Positions 1 through 45,200 of a DNA stretch of 64,000 nt are shown in pieces. Made by a program: the position numbers and the translations under genes. Position 1 is the stretch's first letter, and every line of letters begins with the position of its first letter. The notes beneath the pieces are model-generated. The model ran no database searches. It saw only the letters and a program-made list of their open reading frames with translations, and was not told where the DNA came from. Source of the DNA: Tetramitus jugosus (taxonomy: Eukaryota > Protista > Heterolobosea); NCBI GenBank assembly GCA_937625935.1, contig OW569371.1:1-64000 (forward strand), in the 5' to 3' direction.

Positions 1-801
1 CCAAACCCAAACCAAACCCAAACCCAAACCAAACCCAAACCCAAACCCAAACCCAAACCCAAACCCAAACCCAAACCAAACCCAAACCCAAACCCAAACC
101 CAAACCCAAACCCAAACCCAAACCCAAACCCCAAACCCAAACCCAAACCCAAACCCAAACCCAAACCCAAACCCAAACCCAAACCCAAACCCAAACCCAA
201 ACCCAAACCCAAACCCAAACCCAAACCCAAACCCAAACCCAAACCCAAACCCAAACCCAAACCCAAACCCAAACCCAAACCCAAACCCAAACCCAAACCC
301 AAACCCAAACCCAAACCCAAACCCAAACCCAAACCCAAACCCAAACCCAAACCCAAACCCAAACCCAAACCCAAACCCAAACCCAAACCCAAACCCAAAC
401 CCAAACCCAAACCCAAACCCAAACCCAAACCCAAACCCAAACCCAAACCCAAACCCAAACCCAAACCCAAACCCAAACCCAAACCCAAACCCAAACCCAA
501 ACCCAAACCCAAACCCAAACCCAAACCCAAACCCAAACCCAAACCCAAACCCAAACCCAAACCCAAACCCAAACCCAAACCCAAACCCAAACCCAAACCC
601 AAACCCAAACCCAAACCCAAACCCAAACCCAAACCCAAACCCAAACCCAAACCCAAACCCAAACCCAAACCCAAACCCAAACCCAAACCCAAACCCAAAC
701 CCAAACCCAAACCCAAACCCAAACCCAAACCCAAACCCAAACCCAAACCCAAACCCAAACCCAAACCCAAACCCAAACCCAAACCCAAACCCAAACCCAA
801 A
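1..801. repeat. Telomeric repeat array (CCCAAA)n / (TTTGGG)n
   Basis: About 800 bp of near-perfect CCCAAA at the window start, with the C-rich strand 5' as expected for a left chromosome end. A few CCAAA/CCCCAAA variants occur in the distal ~135 bp. The junction to unique sequence at 801/802 is abrupt. Confidence 0.97.
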
Positions 802-7611: not shown

Positions 7612-8661
7612 TCAATGGAGCATATTAATGCGCTGGCTCAATAATTGCTGCGCATAAGGGAGTGCTCCTTGTTCATTTCGAGATTGATGGACTGGTTGAG
7701 GAGGTAGTGCACTTGGAAATTGGTTTTCAATTGCAAGTTTGTTTGGTTCTGGTGATATCAATCCGAAGCGAGGAGGTGGTGGAGGTTCCAGACTTCCAAG
7801 TTGAGAATTGAATTTCAGAGCACGATTCTTTGAATCAATCTTCTTGATTGCATCACTAAAATCATGTCCCAACCCGGCATTAGTCATGATATATTTGTCA
7901 CAAAAGTCTCTCTTTCTCGATTCAATGTCGTCCAAGCTGAACCAGTGCTGACACCTATTACATCGAAGAACTTTCTCTTGCTCTGTCTTTCTCAGTTTGA
8001 ACACTTTCATAAATGTCTCTCTGGGATTGGAACCACCGTGGAGAACACCAACTCGTGAACATGAAGCTGCCCAGTAATTAGTCGCCTGTTTCTTGAGACT
8101 CACATATTGTTCATAATTCAATGTCAGACTGGAATCGAGCATAATAGCCTTGTTCTCCATGTTGTGGTTGTTCTCCTCACCGATCGTAATCATCGAATTA
8201 TCATCAAACACAAAAGTACTTCTCAGTTTGGCTTGATGATAACTCAAAGTATCCCAGTCTAACAAATTGCGAACAGCATTGTAAAATGGCTTTGAAACAA
8301 ATTGAATTGTCATGAGCAATTCAATAGCATCGACATAAAGCATCATGTGAAACAAAATGTCACTGTGAAGAAAGACAGAGTGATCATTTTGTTGTTGACT
8401 CTCCGAAGCACTTGCGCCACCATGTCTACGTTCTTGTTCTTGTTGTTCCGATAGCTGAAAAGTGCCTTGAACGATATGTTGCATCTTATCATGCACCTTG
8501 AGCTCAGTTCTCAACCTTTGAATCTCACTCAGGGACAAAGATAGCGGTTCTGCCATTTTCTGAACTAAAATTTCAATAACTCGATTTTTTTCTTCCAATT
8601 GACGTTGCAATGACTTTGTCTGCTCTTCATAGTAAAGACGCAATGTTCGATCGTTGGCCAT
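7612..8661 (-). CDS. Coiled-coil plus F-box-like protein
   Basis: Likely start is ATG 8661 (MANDRTLRL). N-terminal coiled coil, internal F-box-like LHSDILFHMMLYVDAIELLMTIQFVSKPFYNAV, a CxxC (CNRC) and a Pro-rich tail. Confidence 0.6.
   Translation of the reverse strand: MANDRTLRLYYEEQTKSLQRQLEEKNRVIEILVQKMAEPLSLSLSEIQRLRTELKVHDKMQHIVQGTFQLSEQQEQERRHGGASASESQQQNDHSVFLHSDILFHMMLYVDAIELLMTIQFVSKPFYNAVRNLLDWDTLSYHQAKLRSTFVFDDNSMITIGEENNHNMENKAIMLDSSLTLNYEQYVSLKKQATNYWAASCSRVGVLHGGSNPRETFMKVFKLRKTEQEKVLRCNRCQHWFSLDDIESRKRDFCDKYIMTNAGLGHDFSDAIKKIDSKNRALKFNSQLGSLEPPPPPRFGLISPEPNKLAIENQFPSALPPQPVHQSRNEQGALPYAQQLLSQRINMLH
7948..8418 (-). repeat. Inverted duplication, copy 1 (partner 19591-20058)
   Basis: The reverse complement aligns with 19591-20058 and is nearly identical. 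Confidence 0.92.
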
Positions 8662-10265: not shown

Positions 10266-11273
10266 ATGAGCACATACTTTTATTCAACACATCAGTCACA
10301 GATACCCAAAGATGATGAAGGTTATGTCAAATCATTTTCATTGGACCAACCAGAACAATATTTGCAGTTCTTCCATCAGTATGGCGTTGTTGTGATCCAC
10401 AACATCGTGAGTGACGATGAATGTGATCGAACAGCAGAAGAAGTTTGGACACTGCTGATCAAGGATGGCATCAAGAAGGATGATTCAACTACTTGGGAGA
10501 ACTGGCCATGGGGAGCTCACTTGGGAATCCTTGGAAACGATTTCATTATGAGTAAGCAAGCTTGTGAAAACAGACAGCATCCAAATGTGCACCAACTGTT
10601 CACCAAACTCTTTGATACTGAGAAATTAATAGTGTCGTTAGATCGAGTGGGTATGATGAGACCTACCGTTGATCATCCAGAATGGAAATCCATTACAGGT
10701 TGGTTGCATTGGGATGCTAATCCATGGACCGGACGAACATCATTGTATGGATGGGGTGGTAACTTTCCATTTTCGCCTCATCATCCAAGTAATCCTTCTG
10801 AACAGGTTGAGAACAATTGTCACAAACAATTAAAAGTACAGGGTATTCTTGCATTGTATGACTGCAGTGAGAGAGAAGGAGGTTTGCATGGTGTTCCTGG
10901 TTTTCATCATGACATGGAAAAGTGGGCACAGAATCACATTGATCTGAAGGATGAGAGCTGCTATCCTAATGTTTTCGATGAGACAACTGTACAGGTGCCT
11001 GACAATGATCCCTTGAGACAATTCATTACTCCACTCCCGATCAGGAAAGGCAGTTTGTTGGTATGGGACTCAAGAATCCCCCATGGCACTCATCCAAACA
11101 ATAGTGACAAGTTCCGATTGATTCAGTACATTAAGATGGCACCAACAACAGATTTATCAATTGTGCCAGCCATGAAGATGAAAGGCATTTTCCCAAAGGA
11201 GTGGCTCAACATGCCACACGATTTTGAATTGACAGATGTGGGTGCAAAATTGTATGGCGTTCAACCTTGGTAG
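10266..11273 (+). CDS. Phytanoyl-CoA dioxygenase (PhyH)-like 2OG-Fe(II) oxygenase
   Basis: FFHQYGVVVIHN entry motif, HxD (WLHWD), VQGILAL..GGLHGVPG, distal His in WDSRIPHGT and the 2OG-binding Arg in RLIQY. Confidence 0.85.
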   Translation: MSTYFYSTHQSQIPKDDEGYVKSFSLDQPEQYLQFFHQYGVVVIHNIVSDDECDRTAEEVWTLLIKDGIKKDDSTTWENWPWGAHLGILGNDFIMSKQACENRQHPNVHQLFTKLFDTEKLIVSLDRVGMMRPTVDHPEWKSITGWLHWDANPWTGRTSLYGWGGNFPFSPHHPSNPSEQVENNCHKQLKVQGILALYDCSEREGGLHGVPGFHHDMEKWAQNHIDLKDESCYPNVFDETTVQVPDNDPLRQFITPLPIRKGSLLVWDSRIPHGTHPNNSDKFRLIQYIKMAPTTDLSIVPAMKMKGIFPKEWLNMPHDFELTDVGAKLYGVQPW

Positions 11274-11399
11274 GACCTCATGAATTGTTGGATAAACAAT
11301 TGAACTGAGCTTTATTTGAATGTAGACAACCATGAATGACTCGTTTTCAGAATAAAACAAATCGTTTTCCTTGTGCACTGTTCCGTGTGAGTTGTGTTG

Positions 11400-12506
11400 T
11401 CGTGCTAAAAGTGTCACAAATGAGTTTCTGGTGGTCCGCTGCAGCAGGTTTGACGCTAATATCTTATAGATGAGTTTTCCATTAATTATTAATTGTGGAT
11501 CACCAGCACCAGATGTTCCGTAATTGTAAAGTTTGTAAAGCTTGATTTCTCCATGGCTGTTCGCAACCACTAAAGTTCTTTAAGCTCTCAAGTTTCTCCC
11601 ATGGTTCAAAATGCTTATCATAGACTAAATAATATGCAGTGTTGCTCCTATCCATATCTATCTCCAAACAAAAGAATAACAACAATTCAGAATTAAATCT
11701 AGATGATCTGGAACTGCTCTTGTGTAGATCGTCCCTTTCAAACTCAAATGCACTGGACGTTGCATACGTAACATTGAAGTTGGTAGAGAGTCTTCTTTGA
11801 ACACTAGAAAGCTTAGAAATCAGAAAGATGTCGCATCGTAATGGATCATCGAGTGGTAGTGGTATCTTGGAAATCTCAGCGCTGATAGTTGCTCTATAGC
11901 TTGATTTGTTAGGGTCAGGAAAGACTTTTTGGCCAAAACTAGCGGTACTGGTGATGAAAAGTGGGTGAAGGGTTTCATTAGTTTCAACTATGTATTTATC
12001 GGAAGCATATTATACTTCTGGGTCCCTGTATTCATCGTTGCTTTTGTAAACCAAAATAAGCAATGGCTATTTCTTGGAAGGTACACTTGATTCAGAATAT
12101 GCTGGTCAAACATAACTCAGTAGATCTTCGATCCGAGTCTGATCAGAAGTGCAACAAAACTCAATATTGCAATTTCGATCCGAAAAATGTTGCTTGTGCC
12201 TCTGTTGCCACTGCCTGCACCGCAGTACATAGCAGACTAATCCCATATGCAGGCCAATAACTATTTGAAAGTCCTCCCATCCAACGCTAGTTGACTCTGT
12301 AATGTACTCGCCGTGGTATGATGAATTGCGGGGTTACAAGGATCCAACGTTGTTCCATGCAACTTCTTGCTTGCTTCGCTGCACTGTTTACCACAACTCG
12401 TGCAAAGAAATTTTCTTTGACAATCAAAGGCATTGTATCTTTTTCCTGTTATGTGCTTGTTAAAGTTTGTTGGCACTTGTTGTTGTCTCTTGCGGTGTTT
12501 TGGCAT
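11400..12506 (-). pseudogene. Decayed gene fragments of unknown function
   Basis: An open frame of about 170 codons runs 12009-11500 after a TAA at 12010-12012, with a frameshifted continuation from ~11570. An upstream CxxC-containing ORF lies at 12261-12506. Confidence 0.35.
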
Positions 12507-12917
12507 TTTTTACGATTTTCACTATTCCAAAAATAAGTGTACTAAACGTTGTACTAGGAATTTGAAATATCCAAGGAAACTCTCAAGTTTCGTCGAGACA
12601 GAAAGAAACATAGAACATGCACTCACCAATAAGAATGTGCGAAATACCTTCATTCCACTCAACTCATATGCCACCAACAACACAATTTTCTAGGTCGGTA
12701 CAAAACACAGCTGAGCACTCAACTAGCAAGCGCATTAAGTCCTCACCTAAGTCAGATCCTCGCAGCTTGACAACAATGGAGCAAATCAACAAGGATGTGG
12801 AAAGAATAATGAACGACGAAAAGATCAACAAAGAGTTCCAAGAGAAGTTCAGAAAGCATAATGACTCTGCTAATCCTCATGATTATTGATCTAAATTGTA
12901 AATAATACCTGTTTTAT

Positions 12918-13364
12918 TCAAGCAAGCAATAACATCATCAAGTCATCCTTAATAGCAGTTCTGTATTCAATTTCATCAATCACATCAACGAATTGGAAAA
13001 ACCCATCATCCGCACTCAAGAGAGTTACCTGAGGCGTTCTCGCAAATGTTTGCTTTGTGCAGCAATTCGCATGTGTGACAACAACTTGCTCTTTTGGTCT
13101 ACCACCACTCTTTCGGACAACAGTAAATCCATCATCAACTTGATCTTCAATTGAACTGGTTTTTGTTTCTTTCCATAATGGAACTCCAGTAGGGCGATGT
13201 TTCTTACTGGTCATTGGAACCACCAGATAATATTTTCTTGAATCAATGTCCACTTCACCAATGACCACACCTTTGTGCTCCTTGTACATATTGTTTTCTT
13301 CAATGTTCGTAAACTCTGGGAAAATCCCTTGAAAATCGCAGTACCATATCTCAAAACGTTTCAC
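12918..13364 (-). CDS. MazF/PemK-like endoribonuclease domain
   Basis: VKRFEIWYCDF..PE...EHKGVVI...YLVVPMTSK...QTFARTPQVTLLS...FVDVIDEIEYRTAIKDDL maps motif by motif onto MazF/PemK (KRG.IW.VDF, RP.VV, VVPLTS, S.A..DQIRT, C-terminal helix). The only start is GTG, so it may be the frameshifted continuation of 13361-13531. Confidence 0.7.
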   Translation of the reverse strand: MKRFEIWYCDFQGIFPEFTNIEENNMYKEHKGVVIGEVDIDSRKYYLVVPMTSKKHRPTGVPLWKETKTSSIEDQVDDGFTVVRKSGGRPKEQVVVTHANCCTKQTFARTPQVTLLSADDGFFQFVDVIDEIEYRTAIKDDLMMLLLA

Positions 13365-13531
13365 CCAGCTGGGTCATACAAGTATTTCAAACGCTCTTTA
13401 AGTTGAGTTTCACTGAGTCGAGTAGTTTCGTTGGTTTCCCTAAACCCATCACGTGTAGAACAACAGGTAACGAATTCTGGACCATCAATAGGTGACACAA
13501 GCACCAATCCATTCTCAATTCGGTAAAACAT
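13361..13531 (-). CDS. 56-aa ORF overlapping the MazF-like ORF (GTGA overlap); N-terminus of a frameshifted gene or a separate small ORF
   Basis: Manual translation gives MFYRIENGLVLVSPIDGPEFVTCCSTRDGFRETNETTRLSETQLKERLKYLYDPAG*. Its TGA (13363-13361) overlaps the GTG at 13364. Confidence 0.45.
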   Translation of the reverse strand: MFYRIENGLVLVSPIDGPEFVTCCSTRDGFRETNETTRLSETQLKERLKYLYDPAG

Positions 13532-13737
13532 TTACAGAAAGCAGAAGTCGCCTTCAAAAGCATACCTCTGGACCCACCGATAATCCAAAGGAGGATGAGG
13601 TAACCATCGATATTTAACTATCCTCGTAAAACAAAACTGTAGGTCACCGTTTGTAAATTCGTTATTACAAAAGCAGACTGTTCTTAACAAACATTCTCAC
13701 AACAAACGAATGAACAACTAATCCAAGATCACCAACA

Positions 13738-14289
13738 ATGCCAATCTACTAGGTATTCAGAATATTCAGACTCTCCTCACAACTAAGAAGTGTGCAAATT
13801 GTTCCAAGTCTGGTACATTGTATCATTGTCACCTTCCACAGATGCAGCTACTGTGAATGCGAAGTGTATTGTTCCAAGGAATGCGAGATAAATCACTTAG
13901 ACGTTCACAAGGAAGTATGTAGTAGTCTCACAGATTCCAGAGCAGCAATAAAGTATCTGATGCACATCGAGATCATGGTCAGAAACAAGAACAACAGCAT
14001 CATCAGTTTTGATCACTCCCTGCTCAAGAAGTTCTATGGGTTCCCTGCCTTGCTGAACCACTACTACACTGATCAATATGAAACGATAGGGGACATCATC
14101 ACTACAAGATTGAGATATGAACAAAACACACAAAACTGTAAAGATCAGTTGGACATTTTTTCAATGGAAGAGCCCTATATAACATTTTCTCATTTGCAAA
14201 ATGTCACAAAGGAAGTTACTGTTCTAGATACACCACGACTTTACAGGAAATGTTGTTTTCGGCGCGAAAGAAGAAGACAGGTGAAGTAG
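13738..14289 (+). pseudogene. MYND zinc-finger protein, frameshifted
   Basis: KKCANCSKSG in one frame (~13785-13815) joins HRCSYCECEVYCSKECEINHLDVHKEVC in another. Together they give the full MYND pattern. There is an in-frame TAG after ATG 13738. Confidence 0.6.
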
Positions 14290-14375
14290 CTGCTTTCCTT
14301 TTTGTTCTGTATTGTTTTGTTGCCATTCAATTGTCCACGAGATGATTTATATCAGATAGAATACAATCGACATGA

Positions 14376-15050
14376 TCATGAAATAGATGTAGTTGTTGCA
14401 CTAGATTCAGCAACAGATCCAGAGTCACTTGTTGGGATGGTCTTGAGTGTAACACCAATAGCCTTGAGATCGGAAATCAGAGTATTTGACAGACCATTTA
14501 ACAATGAAGCACATAGTCTTCTAACACAATGTTGTTCATCAAATATAGCTGTATATGATTGTCTGATGGTCAATCCACACTTATTCCAAGCACAATTTGC
14601 CAGACTGCTTAATTTCTCTGTGTGTACGTATGTGACACCATCTAATAATGCAAATGACTTCTCTGGTTCGTGTGTCTCATCAGGAACACAGAATCCAGTG
14701 TCTGCTAAAACTGCATGCATTATATTCACAGTACGTGCCAGTCACACAGTCATTATGTGACTCACAATGAGCACGAATAACCCCTCTTGCTCTGCACGTT
14801 CCCAAAACACAATTAGTCCCATCTACACATTGTTCAGTAGAGTCACAAGACGTTCCTGTTGACTTCTTTGGCTTGCAGGTGGTATCACAATATTGGTTCG
14901 TACTGCATTCTGAATGTCCATAGCACACCTCGTTTTCTGATCTAATTTGTTCGCATATGTTCTTGTCACTATAGCAAGCACCTCTTCCACATTGAGCCTG
15001 TTTAGTGCATGTATCACTCAAACATCTGTTAATACACTGACATGCCTGAT
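14376..15050 (-). pseudogene. Cysteine-rich repeat (Dickkopf/EB-like) extracellular protein, frameshifted
   Basis: Repeated C-x5-C-x5-C units in 14680-15021 continue in a second frame (14376-14729) into a Ser/Thr-rich tail. There is no ATG start or signal peptide. Confidence 0.5.
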
Positions 15051-15280
15051 GATATAGTGGAAGTAGTAGGATCCTTTGATACTAGGATATCTGTATTTGA
15101 ATAGAATGCCAAAGGCTTTGCAGCACTTTTTGAGAAATTCCATATCGCGTCGTTTCAATGTCTCAGAATCAGCCTCAAGATATACAAGGTGGATATATCT
15201 ATTCAGTTTCGGAAAATGTGAAAAGCAGTAACGGTAATCTGATAGGCAGTAAATCTTAATTGCAGTAGGAAAAATTCTGA
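15018..15280 (-). mobile_element. RAG1/Transib-like transposase remnant, C-terminal part (H-x4-H zinc motif)
   Basis: A frame absent from the ORF track reads EFLKKCCKAFGILFKYRYPSIKGSYYFHYIIRHVSVLTDV*. Vertebrate RAG1, recalled from memory, reads [32 protein letters not shown]. The His pair is at 15059-15042. Confidence 0.55.
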
Positions 15281-15282
15281 AA

Positions 15283-16594
15283 ATGAAACGAACACAAACC
15301 TCTCCTGTATCATCAGGTCACACAAAACAAAAGTATAGACGCAGAAGAAAAGTGGAAAGAAAGAATGATCAAAGCATTATGATTAATTTAACTCTTCAAG
15401 AGTTACATGAGAAGAAACTTGTGTATTTGAAACAACTTTGCCAAGAAAGAAGTATCCAAAAGAAATCAAATAAAAAAATTGTTTTAATTGCCCATCTATT
15501 ACCATATATCACTGACTTGACTGGTATTGATTCTCTAGATGATCACGAGATTGTCATAATATGTTCGACTTTGAACATAAAATATATTTCATCAATACAA
15601 GAGAGGAGAGAAATTCTAAAGAAGGTTGTAGCAACTACTGTTCCTAATATGAACAGTTATGATAATGTGAGAATCATTGAACAGAAAATATCACCCATCG
15701 TCACGGGTAACATAAATGAAGAGTCAAATGTAAACAAGGACGTTTCGTCAATTATAGTTCATAGCGAGAAGATTACACCAAAGACTCTTGTATTTGAAGA
15801 AGAATATACATACTTCGATGACAAAAGCACTCCAGACATGAAAACTCTCACACAATTGAACACCAGTGACTTAGAACGAATCAAGAAAAAACCTCATAAC
15901 CCATGCAGTAGAGCTGGAGCTTGAATTAATTGCACCAAAAACCTCAACTGAAATTGAAGAAGTGTTTGAGAAGAAAGATACGCGAACATGGGGGGAAAAA
16001 CGTTTGGAGAGGTTGCCAAAAACAACACTTTCTTCTGAACCTATATTAAATCCCAAATGGCAGACAGTACATCGAGGTGGTATTAAAACATTGGATGAGT
16101 TTAGAAGGACTTTCCCATTCACACAAGGATCTTTCAAAAGCAATGAAGCAATGGTGTCAAAAGAAATATCCACGTGGAACTTCATTCTTAAAATCAAGCC
16201 TTATGTGTTAAAGGGAAATGGTTAAACCCGCTACTCACAGGCATCTGGGAATATAAACTACCAGACAATCATGGAAGAGCAAAAGTTGCAATGTATGAAA
16301 TCTTCAACTGTACTAACGTTCTTTGTCACAATAGTCAAAAGAAATGTTCAGCCCAGTGGATGTGGCAAAAGCTCTATGATTCTGAAGAAGATCATTTTGA
16401 TACATTGTAAAGGCCAGCATGGAGAGAATTGGATTTCAACAACTATCTTCTCCCGAGGACTAACAGTATCTCAAAAACACTTAGTACAAGTTCAACACAA
16501 TCAATTTGGAGTTTCAGCAAGCAAAATAGCAAATAGGACAGGCTTGGATTCCAAACTTGTGCATAATTTCATTGTCTTGCTTTCTCGATTGTAG
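15283..16594 (+). pseudogene. Frameshifted gene with tandem SAP/HEH-like motifs and a MULE-like zinc/HTH region
   Basis: LHEKKLVYLKQLCQERSIQKKSNKKIVLIAHL is SAP-like. The frameshifted continuation IFNCTNVLCHNSQKKCSAQWMWQK../ILIHCKGQH..LTVSQKHLV..GVSASKIA..VHNF resembles the WRKY/FAR1-like zinc plus HTH N-terminus of Mutator transposases. No DDE core is seen. Confidence 0.35.
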
Positions 16595-16630
16595 AAGGTT
16601 TATTTATTCATTAAGAGATATCAACTACAT

Positions 16631-17086
16631 ATGAATGATGAATCATCTTCTAGAAACATGCCTGGACGATCAAAAAAGGTATCAAACACGACAAGAAAGT
16701 TTGGAAGACCTTCCACTGACAAGCGTTTGACTACCTTAACCAACCGCACGTTCACTATTATAGATCCCAGTGACATTGACCGAATTATTGGAGTCTCCCG
16801 AGAACTGAACCGTACTATGTACAAAGTAGAATGGTCTGATGAATCCCGAGATCAGTGGATTGATTGTCTCGATATGACGAGTGCCCAGTATATGGCTCAT
16901 CAGTATTTGAAATATTTGGATGACTTTTTGGATGAATATGAAGAAGTTACGATGACGAAGTTGAACATCACTTCCGTTATAAAACAAAAAGGGAAATATC
17001 TTGTAGGAAACAACGGGGACTATGAGGAATTATCCACTGAGAATGCAATGGCTACTCGTATATTCCTAAATTTTTTCGATTTCTAA
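16631..17086 (+). CDS. Chromodomain-containing protein or fragment
   Basis: IDRIIGVSRELNRTMYKVEWSDESRDQWIDCLDMTSAQYMAHQYL fits the chromodomain pattern (V/IE.I......Y.V.W......W....l). Confidence 0.6.
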   Translation: MNDESSSRNMPGRSKKVSNTTRKFGRPSTDKRLTTLTNRTFTIIDPSDIDRIIGVSRELNRTMYKVEWSDESRDQWIDCLDMTSAQYMAHQYLKYLDDFLDEYEEVTMTKLNITSVIKQKGKYLVGNNGDYEELSTENAMATRIFLNFFDF

Positions 17087-18452
17087 ATCTACTGCTGCTT
17101 TTCAGTTCAATTTTACTGCTCTTAATATTTACTGCTTTTCCGAATTTCTCTGCTGCTTTTAAGTTCCCTGCATTCAGTTTCATCAACAGCATCTGGACAA
17201 CATCAGCAATATCTCTAAAAGTATGCTCTTGGTTCATCATCATCTCAGTGACATGTTGGAAATGATTTTTGAATTCATTCTATCCCTCATCTCCTTACTA
17301 CTATGCATGAATCTCTTGATTGTACTGCAAACACTTTACAATTAAGGAGAGTCAAAGTGAAAACTACTATACCTTTGGATCCATCAACAGAAGCCTTAAT
17401 TTGAAGTTTCTGCAAATGCTCTAAGTTTGGATATTCATTCTCTTCAATCTCTAGAAGTGATTTCACAATTTCAACAGGATCAACAGAATAACCAATACCA
17501 GAACCAGGTTTTGTTGCTTTCTTCCCTCTGGCAGATGTTGAACGTTTTGGAGTTGGTTTTGGTGGTGTTAAATCAGTTCTTTCAGTCAGATTTGCAAATC
17601 GATTATGATTGTTGCGAGTATTTTCATGGCAGTATTAGCAGCATTGGAAGAATTATTACTTGTCAATTGTTCAGTACTAGATTGATCATTACCAGTAGAA
17701 TTGTTGTTAGAAGCATTAGACATCATTACTTCATCAGAAGGAGTATCACTCATAGTATCTGCACTAGTATTAGAATGAATAGAATTTTCATTGCCTATAT
17801 CAGAAGTGCTAGTATCACTAGTTGCATTAGATTCGCTAGTTCATGAAGTAGTAATTACAGCAGGAGTTGTATAAGTTACTTGCAAGTTGAACTGAACTTG
17901 AACTTTCTTATTGATTTGTTGTCGTCGTTTGTCAAGAGTATTGCTGTGCTTGAGAACATGTACAAAATTGAAATATGTTCTAATAGCTTGAAATTAGCTG
18001 AGACTGATTAGATACCAGTCGAGGAAAAAGAGAGAATTATCTGTATCTAGATTTCTCAAAGTTGAAGCATCTACATGATCCTTGGTGAATTTACGAATCT
18101 CTAATAATTTGGTTTTGCATTTCATTATATGAGTGAGAATTTGATATAGTTCATCCATATTGTTCTTGAAATAATATGCTAGTAATTGAATTTTACCAGG
18201 AACTTTTGGTGAATTATCATTTGCTGATTTGTCATCTGCTGGTTTGTCATTTGTTGAATTGGTTGATTTGTCAGTGTTATCATCATTTTCAGGAGGAGGA
18301 CCATCATATACAACAGATGAAATGAGTGTATTCATAATTCCACCAATCATCACGGTAAGGTTTTTTGGGTTTAAATCCGACAATCCTGAGCGTTGTAACA
18401 AAGCAAAAAAAGATGATAATGAATGGCCAACAGCGCTGCCGTTGGTCAACAT
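17052..18452 (-). mobile_element. RAG1/Transib-like transposase remnant, N-terminal/core part
   Basis: Reading through stops and frameshifts gives LFFLDWYLISLS*FQAIR..LDKRRQQIN, an S/T-rich spacer, GYSVDPVEIVKSLLE..LQIKASVDGSKGIVVFTLTLLN..QSRDS (K-x-S-x-D-G like RAG1 KESCDG; Asp at 17385-17383), then HTFRDIADVVQMLL (LH..R-like). Confidence 0.5.
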
Positions 18453-18468
18453 TTAACAACAAACAAGC

Positions 18469-18990
18469 ATGCCATCACGTGTGAGACAAGCTCCAGCCTA
18501 TTTGGCTGACTATGAGTTAACAGTAGATTTCAGAAGACGTGAATACAGAAGTGGTCCAGTATCTGAAGGAGGAAGGAGGCTTGCAGACAGCAATGATGAT
18601 GCCCGTAAAGGAAGACTGAGCAAATCGAGGAAGGAAATGATTAAGAGTACGGTGTTGCAGTCAATTAGAAAGCGTATGACTGCAAAGAAGCCAATCAGAG
18701 AGTTCAAACGGTTTAGCACTGTTAATTGTCTGGAACGATCCGAGTACAATACATTTGTAAGAGGTACATTGGAGTATTCGTTTGGAAAACAGAACCCTCG
18801 AAACATTGTTCAGAACTCTATCCGTGCCATCATGTCTCTGAAGAAGTTTACGGATGTATTTGGAGATAAAGCAACAAGATCTATTGCGAGAACTGGCATG
18901 AAATGCTGTTTGACATATCCAGTAGTCCTGATGTATAACCAGAAGGACAAGTCAATGTACGTTCAAATGAAATATGAGATAAGAGACTGA
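18469..18990 (+). CDS. Hypothetical basic protein
   Basis: Intact 173-aa ORF with a host-like A/C-rich start context (ACAAACAAGC-ATG) and an N-terminal RxRxxPxYLxDY motif; no recognisable domain. Confidence 0.55.
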   Translation: MPSRVRQAPAYLADYELTVDFRRREYRSGPVSEGGRRLADSNDDARKGRLSKSRKEMIKSTVLQSIRKRMTAKKPIREFKRFSTVNCLERSEYNTFVRGTLEYSFGKQNPRNIVQNSIRAIMSLKKFTDVFGDKATRSIARTGMKCCLTYPVVLMYNQKDKSMYVQMKYEIRD

Positions 18991-19590
18991 GATGGAAAGG
19001 AAATTGATCTGTATGTGATTGGATCTGCCGAGGAAAAGAGAGCTGTGGCTAGCATGCTAAAGGGCAATTCGGCACCAGTTGTTCCAGTACTCGTCGACTG
19101 TCAAGTGACTAGAAGAATATCAGATCAGTGTGAATTTATACCTGTACAATAAGTAAAGGAAGAAGCAAAGCGCTTTCTATGCAAGAGACCATAGATCTGG
19201 TAGTACAACAAGTCACAACCTAGAGCATCATTAAACTTATCATTCGAAATGTCATCTCTCGCTCTCGCTTCGCAGGCTTGTGCTGCAAACAGTCGCCATC
19301 TTTCACACAACATTGTGGTTTTTGAAAATGAAGGAAGAGAGCTATAGTCACGACAATACCAGTTCAATCCAGCTGCTTATATAGTACTTTAATGTGCTGT
19401 TTTTGCTATAATCTGGGTTCACCTTGGTCCAGCTCACCTCATAGGCTTGGGAAATGGAGTTTGACGGGAATTCGTCGACCTATTTTTCGGTTTTAAAACC
19501 AAAAAACCGTCCCGTGTCATGTTACTGAGTTTGTTTCTAGTTGTTGCAGTTTGCTTATCAAATTCCTTTTTGCCTCCTGGTCTATTATTT

Positions 19591-20058
19591 GGTGCAGGTG
19601 CTTCGGAGAGTCAACAACAAAATGATCACTCTGTCTTTCTTCACAGTGACATTTTGTTTCACATGATGCTTTATGTCGATGCTATTGAATTGCTCATGAC
19701 AATTCAATTTGTTTCAAAGCCATTTTACAATGCTGTTCGCAATTTGTTAGACTGGGATACTTTGAGTTATCATCAAGCCAAACTGAGAAGTACTTTTGTG
19801 TTTGATGATGATTCCATGGTTACGATCGGTGAGGAGAATAAGCACAACATGGAGAATAATGCTATTATGCTCGATTCCAGTCTGACATTGAAATATGAAC
19901 AATATGTGAGTCTCAAGAAACAAGCGACTAATTACTGAGCAGCTTCATGTTCACGAGTTGGTGTTCTCCACGGTGGTTCCAATCCCAGAGAGACATTTAT
20001 CAAAGTGTTCAAACTGAGAAAGACAGAGCAAGAGAAAGTTCTTCGATTTTGGTGTCAG
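19591..20058 (+). pseudogene. Partial inverted copy of the F-box-like gene at 7612-8661
   Basis: Near-identical to 7948-8418. It lacks both ends of the gene and has a TGG>TGA nonsense change at 19936-19938. Confidence 0.9.
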
Positions 20059-36226: not shown

Positions 36227-39200
36227 ATGAGAGACAACAATGGATCTGTCAAGAGGCTCTGGATGGTGGTCGTTGTGTTGTCATTCTTGTGTGGAATGAT
36301 TCTACAAATTGGTATGTGATTATAGTTGTTGAACATTGTTGCTCGCCACACTTGTGACGTATGATTGACCTCGTACGTTGTGATACAATTGGTTTGATTG
36401 AAAAAATTGATGACTTTACTGAGTGTAGCTCTCGCGGAAGTACCTTCTTGTAGCGATGTTTTAGCGAGTGAGGCCTCTGTTTGCTCGGCTCATGGATTCT
36501 GTATCGCAAATGATACGTGCTTGTGTCATGATGGATATGATTTGCCGAATTGTGCAACGAGAGGATCAGGTCATGTATTTTCATCGGGTAACAACGCCAA
36601 TAGACAGTTGGGTGATCCACTGTTTACGAGTTCTACCACTTACTCAATGATTCGAGTGGGAGATTATCTTGGTTTAATGAGAGTGGAAGTCATCTCATCC
36701 GGTGATGGATTCTCCTTGGCTCTCACAACAAACGGTGAAGTGTTTGCATGGGGTGTGAATAATTATGGCCAATTGGGGCTTGGATTTACTTCGAAATATG
36801 AGGCCATCCCATCCATTCTCAGAGGCGATTTGCAAAACAAGAGAATTGTGTCGATTTCTGCTTGTTTTTATCATGCATTGGCAGCTGATGTTGATGGAAA
36901 TGTTTATGCATGGGGATCTAACAATGCCGTTGATGAAAAGGGACAAACGGCTAGCGGGTGGCTTGGTGTTCCTTCTGGAACCAATTTTTACTCCCCGAAG
37001 AAGGTGAGCGGTCCCGCTGCTTTTACAAATGTGATCAAAGTCAGGTGTGGAAAATATCATTCCATAGCGCTCAGTTCGGCAGGTGCAATATTTACTTGGG
37101 GTGCACCCAATGATGGTCAAATTGGTGATGGGAGGTTAGGTGGGAGTTCTAGACCCTCTCCCCGCAGAATTTCTGTAATATCTGAAGAATCTGGGTCCGC
37201 GGTTTCTTTTGTAGATGTTGCCACTGGTGAGAGACACAATATTGCATTGGGTGAGAAGGGATCAGTGTGGACTTGGGGTGCCAATGATTTGGGACAAGTA
37301 GGTTACGGATATACAGCAGCAGCGATGCCAATTCCTATTCTTCTATCCTCTGTATCATCGATTGTTGGAGTGGCTGCTTCCAAAAGTTCCACATATGCAT
37401 TGAAGAATAATGGTCAAATGTATTCATGGGGATCCAATAGCAACGGTGAGCTTGGTAATTCAAGTATAACAACGTTCTCAGTTTCCCCTGTTTTGGTGAC
37501 CATGATGCCGCCAAGTGTCATTGTCAAGTCTGTAGTCTCTGGATTTTCTGCTACTAATATTTATGCGATCGCTTCAGACTCTACTGTCTATTCTTGGGGC
37601 AATAATGCCAATGGGCAATTTAGTATTGGATCAGTGGGCACTAAATACATTTCTCCAATGGTGATTGGAGCCCCTTATCTCGCCAGCACTATTACAAAGA
37701 TAACTCCGGGATCAACCCATTCTATGTATCTAGTTGATTCCTTGACTTGCTTCTCAATATTTGAAAAGGATCCTTTGGTATGCTCAGGTCACGGAGATTG
37801 TACATCGAATGATGTTTGTGGATGTAGGAGTGGGTATACTGGATCTGATTGTAGTTGGCCCTCTTGCTTTGGCAGGGATGCATCAGATAGCGCGGTTTGT
37901 TCTGGTCACGGACAATGCTTAACAATTGATACCTGCATGTGTCATCAAGGTTATTCGGGTCAGAGTTGTGAAAAGAAAGACGAAGGTTTTCTCTATGCGT
38001 CCGGCGATAATAGCTTTGGACAATTGGCCGATAACTTAGGAAGGACTGGTGTCTCTAGAATGATTCCTATTCATTCTTGTGCATTTGATGGAATACACAT
38101 CAACTCTGTTGCATCTGGTATGTCTTACTCATTGATTCTATTGGTCAATGGCACACTATTTTCAGTTGGAAAGAATGATCATGGTCAGTTGGGAGATGGC
38201 ACAACCACGAAAAGAGGTAATCCAGTGAGAGTTGAAGGATTCTTCAACGGAACTATTCTGGCTATGTGTGCAGGGTTAACTCATTCATTGGTAGTTGATG
38301 AAACAGGAAGCGTTTGGTCATTCGGAGACAACAGTCATGGTCAATTGGGCACTGGCAACGCTGATCAAGCATCCACACCAGTTAAAATAGGAGGTGCTCT
38401 CACAGGTGAACAAGTTGTTTCTGTAGCATGTGGTTCATTTCACAGTGTTGCTCTTCTCAACAATGGAACTGTTCTTGCATGGGGGAGAAATCATTTTGGG
38501 CAGTTGGGAGATGGCACAACCGTGCAGAAAACACTTCCTCAGACTGTTTTATTGACTGGATTGTTGTACAAAAGAAGAGTGGCATCAATTGCAGCGGGAG
38601 GATCATTCACGATGGTGATTGCAGATGATGGAACGCTGTATCGATGGGGTGAAAACACGGTTGGTCAACTTGGTGATGGCACACTAAATACAGCAACACG
38701 TGCCAGTGCATTAACAACAGGAGTACTGGCATCAAAGAAAGTGACAGGAATTGCGGCAAGTAGCGATTCATCGCACGTAATTGCTGATGGTCTTCTCTAC
38801 TCATCCGGATCTAATCTTTTTGGTCAACTCGGAATTGGTTCACCAACAACTACATTAAGTTTCCAAAAAGTGGCTGGACCTCTCTCGAACAAAATTGTAT
38901 CCAAGATATTTGCTGGCGTTTGTGATTCTCAGACTCATATCAGTGCAATCACTGATTCTCTTGCTTATGTTTGGGGAAATAATAATTTTGGTCAATTGGG
39001 GGATGGAACAAGTATACAAAGAACATCTCCAGTTAACTATCACATTTATTTCCCTGATCGAGAAGTTTTAAGTATGGCAGTGGGATGTGTTCACACATTG
39101 ATTGTTTATGATCTGGCCAAATCTTGCTATGGCGTATTAGCAGATGAACCATCAGTGTGCTCATATCATGGAGATTGTAGCTCCTTTGATCAGTGTTCAT

Positions 39201-42200
39201 GTGAAGAGGGATACAGTGGATTAAACTGTGATTATTTTGAGTGCAATGGTATAGCAAGAGATTTTTCTTCTGTTTGTTCTGGAAGAGGAGTGTGCGCTGG
39301 GGTTGATGTGTGCTTGTGCGATCCAGGATACTCTGGCTCGAATTGCGAGAAAGAAGTGCGCGGAATAGCTTATTCAATGGGTCAACAATCCAATGGCGTT
39401 TTAGCGAATGATGACGTTTCTTCAGCGGGTTATTCACCGATTCCTCTGTTGGTTGGTGGACTTTTGACCAAAGTTATCGTGACCAAAGTTGATGGAGGAG
39501 ACTCTTTTTCAATTGCACTCTCAAATGTAGGTGATTTATATTCGTGGGGATCTGTCAATAACTTTGATAGACCTCAAAAGATGTCAAGCAATGTGCTTGA
39601 TTGTTGCGCTGGTGTTGGCCGAGTGGTTGCCATCAAAAAGGATGGAACTGTTCAAACTTGGGGTGCAGTGTATGGACTCACTGCATCTCCTTCATTCGAT
39701 GATAGTGAAAAGCCAAAGTCGGTCGCATGTGGTGCATATCATACATTGATTCTGACCAATCTGGGAGCAGTCTACTCTTTTGGTTATGGCGCAGCTGGTC
39801 AATTGGGCGTGGGATCAACATCAAACCTTGCAACTGCTCAGAAAGTATTAGGATTAACCAATATTGCACAAGTAGCGGCAGGTGATTATCACTCACTTGC
39901 TTTGGGAGAGTATGGAGAAGTGTATTCTTGGGGAAGAAATAATATGGGCCAGTTAGCCGATTCAACAGTAGCGGATAAAAAGGTTCCAGTTCTGGCAACA
40001 GGAGCTATCACCACAGAATTAATAGTGCATATCTCTGCGTCAGTCCAGAGCTCTTTTGCAGTAACGAATAAGGGTCAAGTTTATTCTTGGGGAAGTAACA
40101 CGAATGGATTATTGGGTGACTCTTCAGCAGGTACATCCAGACCATTGCCTGGATTGGTTAAAAACATCGACGATATTCAAATGAAAGCTGTTTATACGAG
40201 CAGGATTAATTCTTGGGTCACTGGCATTGATAAAACAGATGCTGGATATTCGTGGGGAATAAACCAATATTCTCAATTGGGAGATAAGAGCACGAACGCA
40301 AGACAGCAACCAGTGAAGCAAGTGGTGAATGAAAACTATCCTTCAACATACTTGGTAAGTGTTGGCGCAGGTAGTACATATTCACTTCTGTTGTTGAATG
40401 GAACCATTTGCTTTGGTTTATTGGCAGATGATGCATTGGTGTGCAATTGGAGAGGAACATGTGTTGATGAGGATCGATGTGCTTGTGATTCTGGTTATTA
40501 TGGAAATGAATGTGGCCTGACAACCTGTTTTGGTGTGCCTTCCAATAGCTCAACTGTTTGCTCTGCAAGTGGAACGTGCATTGCCCATGATGTTTGTTCT
40601 TGCATTGATTCTTTCGCTGGCAGTAATTGCGAAAAGCCAGTTATGGGATATATTTATGGTGCCGGAAAGAATAGTGATGGACAGCTTGGGGATGATTTGC
40701 AGATTGATCGTTCAATTCTTGTGGCAACTTCGTTGCCACTGTCCACTGACAAGTATGTGAAATTTTTGTCTGCAGGATTGGATTTTTCGCTTGCCATCAC
40801 TCGAGAGGGAGAGTTATATACTTGGGGTTCAGATTTTTATTATTACGGTTCCAACACTGGCTTTGGGAGAATTCAAAGAATTCGCCCAATATTGAAATCT
40901 AATCTGCGGTTTGTTTCTGGCTCAGCTGCACAATACCACGCTGTTGCAGTGACTGATGATGGAAAAGTGTATTCTTGGGGTTGCAACACTTTTTCATGTG
41001 ACACTGAATATTCACTACTAAGGACGAACACTGATGGTAACTTCTATTATGAAACAGCGAAATGCACAGAAACTCAATGTTGTGTGGGATCTTTTTCAGT
41101 CGTTTGTACTTCAAATCCAGCAGTGCTCGGATATTTGGGTTTAGGGTCTTCTTACTATTACAGTGCTACACCTCGAGAAGTAACTGGCATGACTGGCACA
41201 GCAGTTTCGGTATCATGTGGATTATATCATTGTTTGGTGTTGATGTCGAGCGGAGCACTATGGGCATGGGGAGACAACACTCATGGTCAGTTGGGTAATG
41301 GCGGTTTTGGCACAAATGTCCGATCTTTCAGTCCAGTGCGAGTGGCACAATCATTAGCATCAGGCGGAACATTGAGTGATGTGAAAGTGATTTCTATCTC
41401 TGCTGGATCCTACCACAGCATGGCTCTCAGCTCTATGGGTGAAGTATTTGTGTGGGGAAGGAATGCAAATGGTCAAATTGGTGATGACATTATTCGAAGT
41501 TCCAACTTGAGTCGATTCCCAAAGAAGATTGTGAATTCTCCATTGTATAGAATTCCAATCAAATCCATCATTGCTGGAACTTCTTCTTCATTTGTGATTG
41601 ACTCAAACAATAATGTGTTCGCATGGGGAAGCAACACGAATTATCAATTGGGAATTAATTCGACAGTCACACAGGCATCAACTCCAGTTGCTTTAGAAAA
41701 TTGTATGTCGATCCATACAATGTCATCGAGCAGATTTGGAAGTGATTTTGTGATTGCGGGAGATTTGAATGGAGATGGATATGGCTGGGGATTGGGAAGC
41801 AATTATGAATTGTTGAATGGAGTGACTGACATAGTTATTTCACCACAATCCACACGGAAACTCTATGCCAATCCAGTGATACAAACATACACGAACAGAT
41901 CGATTGTTGCAGTGGCTGCTGGCGCTCAACATTCTCTTTTCCTACTAAATGGAACATTCTGCTTTGGTTTATTCTCGGATGATCCTTTAGTCTGTTCATG
42001 GAGAGGGCAATGTGTGGCCACTGACGCATGCGTTTGTCAATCTCATTACTTTGGTCCTGATTGTAGTTTAACCACTTGTTTTGGAGTCAATTCCACTGAT
42101 CCAACTGTCTGTTCTGGATTTGGTGCATGTGTTTCACATGATGCATGCTCATGTGCAACTGGATACACTGGTAACAATTGCAGTGTTTGGTTATTTGGTG

Positions 42201-45200
42201 AAACCTATTCAATTGGTGCCAATTCAGATGGTCAATTGGGAGATGATTACTATCTGGATCAATCAAGTCTCACAAGAACATCATATCCACTCTCATATGG
42301 TGAGCATGTTCAATATATTGATGCTGGTGTTGACTTTACTGTTGCAGTTTCTAGAACGAACCAGTTGTTTGTCTGGGGGAAGAATAGTTATTACAACTTG
42401 GGCACAGGAACGACAAAAAAATCAATGAGGCCTTTTCAACTTCTCTCTGATCGCAACATTGTAAGTGCTTGTGCAGGAAAGTATCATGGTGTTGCTGTTG
42501 ATTCTCTTGGAAATGTATTCACTTGGGGAACCAACACTCGATCTGGTATTGTGACATGTCCAAATGGCTCTCCTGCCAGTACTTCTTTTTGCTCTGAAAC
42601 AACTTGCTCATGTAATACCAATACTGCTCCACCAATAATAGGATATCTTGGATTGGGAGGCTCTTACTACTTCTCCACAACCCCCAAGCAAGTTTCACTC
42701 AGTGCTCAAATTGTTTCAGTGACTTGTGGAGCTTCACATACGATTGGCTTGTCTGCTTCAGGAAAGCTGTATGCTTGGGGAGAAGGCTCAAATGGGCAAT
42801 TGGGAATTGGAAATTGGGCGAATTCACTTTCTCCAGTTGTGGTTGCAGCCAGCAGTCCAATTCGAGACATCTTCTCCAATGTCAGAGTCGTTCAAGTTTC
42901 CACCGGTCTATATCATAGCATTGCTCTGGGAAGCAAAGGTGATGTTTACACTTGGGGAGACAACAGCAAAGGGCAATTGGGTCATGGAACAACAAAAGAC
43001 AGTCGACACCCTATTCAAGTATTTACAACAGTACTCGGTCTGCCAGTCATTCAAGTTGTCGCAGGAGATTATTCATCCTACGTGTTGACATCAGATGGTC
43101 AAATTTATTCATGGGGTGACAATTCAGTTGGCCAACTGGGTATTGACAGCACCGTTTCGTTTGTCTCCATTCCGACACATGTATCAAGTTTAGCTGGTGC
43201 AAGTATCGTTTCTCTCGCGACAAGTTCAAGCACAGTGATTGCCATTGCATCTAATGGAACAGCTTATTCATGGGGACTCAATACTAATTCTCAGGCAAAT
43301 GATGGATCAATCACATCAAAGGGAGCACCAACACTTGTTGTGAATCCTTATCCAACGAGGAAGATTGTTGCTGCAACAACGGGAAATATTTTCAGTGTTT
43401 TGGTTTTGAACACCACTTATTGCTTTGGATATCCGATGGATGATGTGATGGCTTGTTCAACTCGAGGAAACTGCACAGATACAGATACATGTGTATGTAC
43501 CAACAATTACTTCGGAAATACCTGCCAATTCACAACTTGTTTTGGATTGAACAACACAAACTTGGATGTTTGTTCTGGTCATGGGTCATGTATTGATCAT
43601 GATACTTGTCAGTGCCCGATTGGGTTCACTGGAAAACACTGTAATCAGCCAGTGTTTGGTTCACTTCGAACAATTGGAAACAATAATTATGGCCAATTGG
43701 GAGATGATTACACAATTGCAAGGACGGAGTTGACGAAAACGTATCAATCATTGGCCGATGGAACTCTTGTTCAACAAATCAGCTCAGGCGTTGATACATC
43801 ATTTGGCATCACAGTTTCTGGGGAGTTATATTCATGGGGTTCTGGTGTCTATGGTCGAATGGGCAATGGTAACACTTCAACCAAACTATTTCCAAGTAGA
43901 CTACTGTCACCAAAGCAAGTTGTGAGTGTTTGCAGTGGATCTTATCATAGTACAGCAGTGACAAGCTCTGGCGAAGTGTTTTCTTGGGGAGTGAACACAA
44001 TTGATGGAACAACAAACAGTTTTTCAATCATAGCAGGTCAATTGGGAATTGGATCTTCCAACTACATTTACTCGCCGACAATAGTATCGGGACTATATGG
44101 AACACCAATTACAGTGGCATGTGGCCATGTTCACACATTAGTTTTGACAAACGAAGGATATGTGTTCGGTTTTGGTGATGATGAAACATATGGAGCAGTT
44201 GGTTATGGTTTGGTACGAAAGGAAACGCTACCTGTTCGAGTTGGTGCAAGCAGCCCAATCAAAGGCATTCTTTCAGAAGTCAAAATTGTTGCCATTGCAG
44301 CAGGTCAATATCACAGCATGGCACTTGGAAACAGAGGTGAGGTGTACACTTGGGGAGATAACAGCAGAGGCCAATTGGGAGATGCTTCAACGCTCAATAA
44401 TCGGCACCCAAGACAAGTTATGAATCAACTGTTTGGAAAGAGTGTGATTCAGATTGCTGCAGGAGCAAAATCATCATATGCAATCACTTCTGATGGAGCT
44501 CTGTTCTCGTGGGGAGAAAATGATGCTGGTCAGTTGGGAATCAATTCCACAATCAACCAAAGTATTCCCACGGTTGTGCAAGGAGTGGAGGATGCTATCA
44601 GTATATCAGGTGGCACATGGAGCAAATATGCATTGGTGGTCACACGAAACGGCACGGCATTCGGGTTTGGAGATAACACTTTTACCAAGATTGGGGACGA
44701 CACCAGCATCAGCAGGTTATCTCCTTCGCGATTAGTGAATCCATATGCATCTAGCTTTTTTGTTGCTGCAGAAGCATCATCATCTCATTCCATGTTCCTT
44801 TTGAATGGTACCTTTTGCTTTGGAATCTTATCTGATGATGAGAATGTTTGTTCAACAAGAGGAACTTGTGTCTCAACTGATCATTGCATTTGTGAGTATG
44901 GATATCTGGGAGTTAACTGCAGCACTATCAATATGTGTTTTGGTTTGAATCAATCAGATAGCAATGTGTGCTCTGGCCATGGATCGTGTGCAGCAACAGA
45001 CACGTGTATTTGTGAAACTGGGGAGTGGTACGGTGAGAATTGTCAAAGTTTTGATTGTTTCAATGTGTCTTCGAATGATTCCGCCGTGTGTTCCGCTTAT
45101 GGTCATTGTATTGCGCCAGATGTGTGTAACTGTACTAGAGGATACACTGGAGAAAACTGCCAATACACCATTTGTCATGGCAGGAATACTTCTGATTCAT

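What the first reader, a model, noticed from the sequence alone, without database searches (positions are those of the whole stretch)
12918..13531. MazF/PemK-type toxin RNase in a eukaryotic subtelomere with a small overlapping upstream ORF
Seen: a 148-aa ORF with all MazF/PemK landmarks. The Thr of PMTS is retained, the catalytic Arg position is His (EHKGVVI) and there is a ~30-aa insertion. A 56-aa ORF precedes it, and its stop overlaps the GTG start (GTGA), the geometry of bacterial antitoxin-toxin operons. Established: MazF/PemK are prokaryotic toxin-antitoxin ribonucleases. Inference: either a horizontally acquired TA-like pair, or one ~200-aa gene with a 1-nt frameshift (adding a C to GACCC at ~13372 gives ..YLYDPSWVKRFEIW..). 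It could act as an addiction or antiviral RNase carried by a mobile element.
Basis: partly seen in the sequence, partly recalled or inferred. Interest (0 to 1): 0.78.

Follow-up and report, generated by a model that had tools for sequence, protein, structure and literature searches.

The report
Broken single-gene MazF-like protein in amoeba
What looked like a bacterial toxin-antitoxin pair near an amoeba chromosome end is one gene, split here by two extra bases and unbroken in soil and groundwater sequences, whose protein is predicted to have the fold of bacterial MazF RNA-cutting enzymes and likely acts alone, possibly against viruses.

Summary
Contigs from two independent studies (groundwater X4, soil X8; weakly a soil RNA library, X12) lack 2 nt at 13365-13366, which gives one 201-aa frame (P0002..YLYDPAVKRFEIW..). 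Contigs identical to the window carry the extra bases, so the break is real in this isolate, not an assembly slip. The host is a heterolobosean amoeba. Residues 52-201 are a divergent MazF/PemK domain: Pfam E 0.002-0.005, under the cut-off; own PemK profile 0 of 2000 shuffles; alignment-guided model Z 13.4 to MazF. Thr52 is kept; Arg29 is His. His there, an N-terminal extension and a central insertion also mark a long phage-borne PemK clade that includes the only PemK gene found in SaPIpT1028, likely the single-protein antiphage system Sma. The likeness is architectural: sequence does not place P0002 in that clade. Only one distant relative (P0004) was found among 1.84 billion proteins. Best reading: a horizontally acquired stand-alone MazF-type RNase, likely dead in this strain. 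Activity and antiviral role are untested.

The parts
13367..13522 (-).
   Evidence: Matches P0002 residues 2-53 with two substitutions; no Pfam hit; Atlas best score 0.77, a lead only
13365..13366 (-). 2 extra bases relative to environmental alleles; shift the frame and create the TGA/GTG overlap right at the start of the MazF domain
   Evidence: Left out in X4 (3437-nt contig, depth 9.7), X8 (depth 2.3) and X12 (only 14 nt on one side); present in X1 (1913-nt contig, 0 differences over 11803-13715) and X3 (depth 2660, none lacking them)
12918..13364 (-). 3' part of the gene: MazF/PemK-type domain (residues 54-201 of P0002) with His83 at the Arg29 site, Thr105 at the Thr52 site and a ~30-aa insertion (about residues 118-148)
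13523..13531 (-). Strain-specific 5' end (M-F-Y); environmental alleles stop matching the window at 13522 and have their own ATG directly before the Arg codon and a different upstream flank
   Evidence: X4 contig aligned only to 13522 with ~2.4 kb unlike beyond; X8 loose end of 255 or more letters at 13522; P0002 begins MRIENG
12596..12917 (-). 3' flank shared with the intact groundwater allele (likely 3' UTR)
   Evidence: X4 record 21 matches 12596-13522; short pieces in RNA library X9 at 12706-12856 and 12885-13035, not shown to be transcribed
1..801 (.). Telomere array (CCAAAC/CCCAAA-type hexamer, 134 copies); the gene lies 12 kb from it

Best explanation
The two ORFs are one gene for a 201-aa protein, broken in this isolate by 2 extra bases, whose C-terminal 150 residues are predicted to fold like MazF and which likely works, when intact, as a stand-alone RNA-cutting enzyme of bacterial or phage origin. 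Shown: one frame in environmental alleles, a real break in this isolate, a MazF-type sequence profile with Thr52 kept and His at Arg29, host-like codon use. Inferred: it would dimerise like MazF, use His83 as acid/base and Thr105 to hold the phosphate, and be kept quiet by its own N-terminal extension or central insertion rather than by a separate antitoxin; when triggered (most plausibly by virus infection, by analogy with the single-protein antiphage system Sma) it would cut RNA and stop translation. The window allele would give a 56-aa peptide and at best a product from the next ATG (13289) that lacks the first strand of the barrel, so it is likely a null. Odds by step: one broken gene 0.92; MazF fold 0.9; active RNase when intact about 0.5; antiviral role about 0.3.
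For: Fused protein P0002, 201 aa, 99% identical, on 3 contigs. 2-nt difference seen in runs of three studies, two of them bridging the site with more than 31 nt each side and differing from each other at 13448 and 13468. Pfam PemK E 0.0019 and 0.0047; PHROG 1936 MazF-like E 0.023; ESM Atlas top hits are PemK clusters, score 0.91, 173 shared features, 10 of 10 best named hits in one family or clan. PemK profile: P0002 14.5 bits and the independent relative P0004 9.9 bits, 0 of 2000 shuffles each; hhalign 79%, E 1.6e-5. Model with 74-row alignment pLDDT 74.3, core 83-95; VIA Z 13.4, rmsd 2.8 A over 104 residues to MazF-mt1, ten MazF/Kid entries on top. His at the catalytic site is shared by P0004 and by 33 of 40 non-redundant long phage PemK proteins (3 Arg, 4 motif not parsed), including PT1028 ORF005 (H75). 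Five of the six best viral-fold hits are named long phage PemK or endoribonuclease proteins of 178-266 aa, one is unnamed. Codon use is host-like (CAI 0.74 and 0.71 against 0.66-0.75 for the other window ORFs tested).
Against: All family hits are under the curated cut-off; none in NCBIfam or PADLOC and none to solved MazF sequences. The single-sequence model was poor (pLDDT 39.7) and matched nothing; the good model was built on an alignment of PemK proteins, so its fold match is not independent. Arg29 is essential in canonical MazF (PMC10893535, PMC11394972, passages), and only 3 of 64 ordinary PemK proteins have His there. Sequence does not tie P0002 to the Sma-like clade: hhalign 27% against 79% for ordinary PemK, best single hit an ordinary PemK, N-terminal extension no better than shuffles (306 of 1000) and pairwise to PT1028 ORF005 no better than shuffles (232 of 1000). 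Four of five base differences among alleles change the amino acid: no sign of purifying selection, on very few sites. The loss in this isolate shows the gene is dispensable at least there.
Confidence: 0.6

Rival explanations
1. One gene, MazF fold, but catalytically dead or repurposed: a neutral or RNA-binding relic of a horizontal transfer that is decaying in the subtelomere.
For: Arg29, Pro30, Glu24 and Gly10 are not kept; the isolate carries a null allele; 4 of 5 allele differences are non-synonymous; only one distant relative among 1.84 billion representatives.
Against: His and the PMT motif are kept in P0004 at about 35% identity; His is the usual residue in the long phage clade; the frame is open in at least two independent environmental haplotypes.
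Confidence: 0.27
2. The gene is cargo of a mobile unit (virus, transposon or recombining subtelomeric cassette) and serves that element, for example by excluding competitors or shutting off host translation.
For: The shared segment 12596-13522 has a different upstream flank in X4 and X8; an inverted 458-nt 97% repeat brackets 11 kb around it; phage relatives sit between repressor and integrase; earlier notes report an integrated virus and a telomere element in this genome (unchecked).
Against: No match in viral contigs, phages or plasmids; no integrase, transposase or capsid hit among the neighbours tested; depth equals the flanks in X1, so no extra copies at 85% identity or more; the inverted arms lie inside duplicated coding sequence.
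Confidence: 0.2
3. A two-gene antitoxin-toxin operon kept in bacterial geometry.
For: GTGA overlap and a small upstream ORF.
Against: Natural alleles are fused; such overlaps occur in 18 of 165 ORFs of this window; the small ORF has no antitoxin family hit; eukaryotic scanning ribosomes do not normally re-start at an overlapping GTG (established knowledge).
Confidence: 0.03
4. The window allele is still functional because a 77-nt GT..AG intron (13445-13369) removes the shifted stretch and keeps the MazF domain whole (178 aa).
For: Of 17 in-frame GT..AG options only this one and an implausible 11-nt one keep KRFEIW.
Against: The same intron would put the fused alleles out of frame; its 5' site (GTTTAG) is not the usual consensus (consensus recalled); the RNA-library contig X12 covers 13351-13503 without a gap other than the 2 nt.
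Confidence: 0.05

Closest known systems
MazF/PemK/Kid endoribonucleases (Pfam PF02452; E. coli MazF, B. subtilis EndoA, M. tuberculosis MazF-mt1)
   Same: Profile match over the first four strands, aligned Q77 strand and C-terminal helix; Thr52 and Pro50 kept; predicted barrel (Z 13.4).
   Different: His for Arg29, no GxE motif, ~53-aa N-terminal extension, ~30-aa insertion, no cognate antitoxin gene, eukaryotic host, 10-21% identity.
[quoted passage not shown]
   Same: One protein with an N-terminal extension (domain starts at residue 54 in ORF005, 55 in P0002), His at the catalytic site (H75, H83), an insertion at the same place and a shared KQTFA word before the Q77 strand.
   Different: The clade keeps G-x-N-x-G-S-E and has a long coiled insertion (230-320 aa in all); P0002 has neither, its insertion is modelled as strands, and neither the extension nor the whole protein is significantly similar. 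That ORF005 is Sma is my inference: it is the only PemK hit among 5 of the 22 ORFs tested; the original paper was not held.
Type III toxins ToxN/AbiQ/CptN and CcdB (same fold)
   Same: Hairpin in place of the first helix resembles ToxN; fold hits Z 9.8 (CptN), 10.3 (CcdB), 5.7-6.1 (ToxN, AbiQ).
   Different: ToxN profile of 7 sequences gives hhalign 0.4% and weak scores (4 of 1000 and 200 of 1000 shuffles as high); no tandem RNA repeat near the gene.

Membership tests
MazF/PemK toxin (PF02452) | Score over the Pfam gathering cut-off (23.1 bits) | tested here: not met
   18.8 and 17.5 bits
MazF/PemK toxin (PF02452) | Remote profile similarity above chance | tested here: met
   0 of 2000 shuffles for P0002 and for P0004; hhalign 79%; Atlas 0.91
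MazF/PemK toxin (PF02452) | MazF/CcdB barrel fold | tested here: inconclusive
   Met by the alignment-guided model (pLDDT 74, Z 13.4), which is not independent of the alignment; the single-sequence model was uninformative
MazF/PemK toxin (PF02452) | Catalytic Arg (E. coli R29) | tested here: not met
   His83; Arg in 61 of 64 ordinary PemK proteins
MazF/PemK toxin (PF02452) | Catalytic Thr/Ser (E. coli T52) in P-x-T | tested here: met
   P103-M-T105, kept in P0004
MazF/PemK toxin (PF02452) | Homodimer | not tested
   The complex-prediction queue was full; no job ran
MazF/PemK toxin (PF02452) | Sequence-specific RNase activity | not testable with these tools
   Needs bench work
Type II toxin-antitoxin operon (MazEF/PemIK) | Separate upstream antitoxin gene | tested here: not met
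   The upstream ORF is fused in frame in natural alleles and has no family hit
Sma / long His-type phage PemK clade | His at the catalytic site, N-terminal extension, central insertion in one protein | tested here: met
Sma / long His-type phage PemK clade | Sequence placement inside the clade (G-x-N-x-G-S-E motif, similar extension, higher score than to ordinary PemK) | tested here: not met
   8.1 bits and 27% against 14.5 bits and 79% for ordinary PemK; extension 306 of 1000 shuffles
Sma / long His-type phage PemK clade | Antiviral protection | not testable with these tools
   Needs infection assays
Type III toxin (ToxN/AbiQ) | Profile match and upstream tandem RNA antitoxin repeats | tested here: not met

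The most novel reading that the evidence does not exclude
Free-living heterolobosean amoebae carry a bacterial- or phage-derived, self-contained MazF-type RNase with a His active site that works as a eukaryotic antiviral (abortive) effector, the counterpart of the phage-island defence protein Sma, and that segregates as intact and null alleles in changing subtelomeric contexts.
Probability: 0.22. Interest if true: 0.78.

Novelty: new variant of a known kind. Interest (0 to 1): 0.5.

Why it matters
MazF/PemK RNases are treated as prokaryotic; four literature searches (listings only) showed no paper on a nuclear-encoded eukaryotic member. If P0002 is active it would add MazF to the bacterial defence effectors taken up by eukaryotes, give a small natural enzyme with which to test His-for-Arg catalysis and antitoxin-free control, and offer a natural null allele for comparing strains. 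If it is inactive it is only a decaying transferred gene.

Tried and rejected
No whole genome is held for the window, so paralogues could be judged only from contigs laid on it: none at 85% identity or more in X1. Pattern scans for relatives of P0002 or alignment A1 found none in viral contigs, JGI metagenomes or GTDB genomes; tblastn none in phages or plasmids at E 1; A1 matched 0 of 5 genomes and 1 of 401 at E 0.02 with two stops inside, not followed up. P0003 is a low-complexity Cys-rich repeat, rejected as a false hit. A second homologue search with A1 added nothing beyond P0002 and P0004. The single-sequence fold model and its searches were uninformative. Two-sequence profile against E. 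coli MazF alone: 0.2%. ToxN reading rejected. Rfam: nothing in 11200-15500. Homopolymer or assembly error rejected. The homodimer prediction did not run because the queue was full, so dimer formation and any contact between extension and barrel are open. X7, X9 and X10 cover only the 3' part and do not reach the junction. RNA-library pieces (X9, X12; 151 nt, depth 2-4) do not show transcription. The primary Sma paper (PMID 35985290) was not held; the Sma alignment in the supplement of PMC13660305 is a picture and could not be read, so the residues tested in Sma are not known to me.

Full report
Observation. The two minus-strand ORFs are as described: 12918..13364 (148 aa, GTG) and 13361..13531 (56 aa), overlapping in GTGA. 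The window begins with an 801-nt hexamer telomere array and has eukaryotic housekeeping genes; the best named relatives of its Ku70 are from Acrasis kona (43%), Willaertia magna (43%) and Naegleria (37-40%), with closer unnamed ones at 47-56%, so the host is a heterolobosean amoeba. The overlap itself is no signal: 18 of 165 ATG-ORFs of 50 aa or more in the window end on a start codon that opens 100 codons.

One gene, not two. The only close homologue among 5.8 billion proteins is P0002, 201 aa, 99% identical, which joins both ORFs as ..YLYDPAVKRFEIW..; it is on 3 Logan contigs. Eight of the 20 listed runs were laid on the window. Groundwater run X4 (3437-nt contig, depth 9.7) and soil run X8 (depth 2.3) lack 2 nt at 13365-13366 and bridge the site by more than 100 nt on each side; they give the same junction yet differ from each other at 13448 and 13468, so they are separate haplotypes. 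Soil RNA library X12 shows the same gap with only 14 nt on one side. X1 has a 1913-nt contig identical to the window over 11803-13715 and X3 has depth 2660 at the site with no contig lacking the bases; these may be the window's own source, so they show that the break is in the isolate's DNA and not an assembly error, and that no intact allele is visible in it (contigs drop rare variants). X7, X9 and X10 do not reach the junction. The break falls exactly at the start of the MazF domain, which explains why the pieces look like antitoxin and toxin. X4 and X8 also leave the window at 13522 and have an ATG directly before the Arg codon with a different upstream flank, so the gene lies in different 5' contexts in different strains. 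An intron rescue of the window allele is possible on paper (77 nt, 13445-13369) but has a poor 5' site and would break the fused alleles.

What the protein is. Pfam PemK matches at E 0.0019-0.0047, under the cut-off; PHROG 1936 at E 0.023; NCBIfam, PADLOC and PDB sequences give nothing. The ESM Atlas returns PemK clusters at 0.91 with 173 shared features. A search of 1.84 billion representatives gave P0002, one low-complexity false hit and P0004 (126 aa, 35%, E 1.3e-4, a 983-nt contig), which shares His, PMT and the T-x-A-R-T-x-Q-V strand. A profile of 64 PemK proteins (63 non-redundant at 55% from fetched loci plus E. coli MazF) scores P0002 14.5 and P0004 9.9 bits, with 0 of 2000 shuffles as high for each; hhalign gives 79%, E 1.6e-5. 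A ToxN profile does much worse. AlphaFold2 on the lone sequence failed (pLDDT 39.7). With a 74-row alignment it gave pLDDT 74.3, core 83-95, residues 1-30 under 50; this model matches MazF-mt1 at Z 13.4, rmsd 2.8 A, 104 residues, with ten MazF/Kid entries first, then CcdB 10.3 and CptN 9.8, and Tudor/chromo barrels at 6.7 or less (Foldseek agrees). Because the alignment was made of PemK proteins this shows compatibility, not independent proof.

Active site. E. coli R29 aligns with H83 and T52 with T105; G10, E24 and P30 are not kept. Arg and Thr are essential in canonical MazF (PMC10893535 and PMC11394972, passages), and Arg stands in 61 of 64 ordinary proteins. But His is the rule in a long phage-borne PemK clade: of 80 viral loci, 78 gave an ORF and 40 were non-redundant; 33 have His, 3 Arg and 4 were not parsed. 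These proteins also carry an N-terminal extension and an insertion at the same place as P0002. One is identical to ORF005 of phage island PT1028, the only PemK hit among 5 of its 22 ORFs tested. [quoted passage not shown] I take ORF005 to be Sma by inference; the primary paper was not held. The best viral fold hits of the model are mostly long phage PemK proteins. Against membership: P0002 scores lower to this clade (8.1 bits, 27%) than to ordinary PemK, its best single hit is an ordinary PemK, and neither its extension (306 of 1000 shuffles as high) nor the whole protein against ORF005 (232 of 1000) is significant. So it may work like Sma but is not shown to be one.

Surroundings. Neighbours are a MYND-finger gene (divergent, 13792), a PhyH-type dioxygenase and an F-box/LRR gene; no integrase, transposase or capsid hit among those tested. 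GC, GC3 and codon use of both parts are host-like. No relative was found in viral contigs, JGI metagenomes, GTDB genomes, phages or plasmids. A 458-nt inverted repeat (97%) brackets 11 kb around the gene but lies inside duplicated coding sequence. Five base differences among alleles include four amino-acid changes: too few to read selection, and not in favour of it.

Mechanism and verdict. Most likely the intact gene encodes a stand-alone MazF-type RNase acquired from bacteria or phage, using His83 and Thr105, controlled by its own extension or insertion, and most plausibly used against viruses; the window allele is likely a null. The one-gene reading is shown, the fold is well supported but below curated thresholds, and activity, dimerisation (the job did not run, queue full) and the antiviral role are inferred. 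The main rival is an inactive relic. Four literature searches (listings only) showed no paper on a eukaryotic nuclear MazF. Novelty: new variant of a known kind; interest 0.5, lowered from 0.78 because the operon is an accident of a frameshift and the family has two known members, kept up by the eukaryotic host and the parallel with Sma.

Noticed in passing
window 7962-8419 and 19590-20047: Inverted duplicate of 458 nt (13 differences) inside two copies of a coding region, 11.2 kb apart, bracketing the MazF-like gene.
   Followed up: partly
window 13651-13756: A 50-100-nt stretch in the divergent intergenic region matches several other contigs in X1, X3, X4, X8 and X12 (loose ends, depth spikes): a multi-copy motif or small element.
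   Followed up: no
window 14120-14394 and 14471-14866: A second X1 contig skips 273 nt and replaces 394 nt by 532 other letters: a paralogous or allelic version of this subtelomeric block.
   Followed up: no
window 10266-11273 (+): Intronless 335-aa PhyH-type dioxygenase (Pfam E 1.2e-13), a possible further transferred gene.
   Followed up: no
window 15283-18990: Cluster of short orphan ORFs; 16631-17086 looks chromodomain-like and 18469-18990 begins with a motif seen in retroelements (both recalled, no Pfam or PHROG support).
   Followed up: partly
L272-L351, L261-L264, L352:4599-5396: A widespread long PemK clade of Firmicutes prophages and satellites has His in place of the catalytic Arg (33 of 40); some records label it 'antitoxin mazE-like', probably wrongly. 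PADLOC has no model for the four tested.
   Followed up: partly
window 36410-50560 (+): A single 4716-aa ORF with EGF- and RCC1-like repeats by eye (labels recalled, not scanned).
   Followed up: no
P0004: The only distant relative starts just before the catalytic His and lacks the first strand, like the product predicted from ATG 13289 of the window allele; it may be a gene-calling or contig-end artefact.
   Followed up: no
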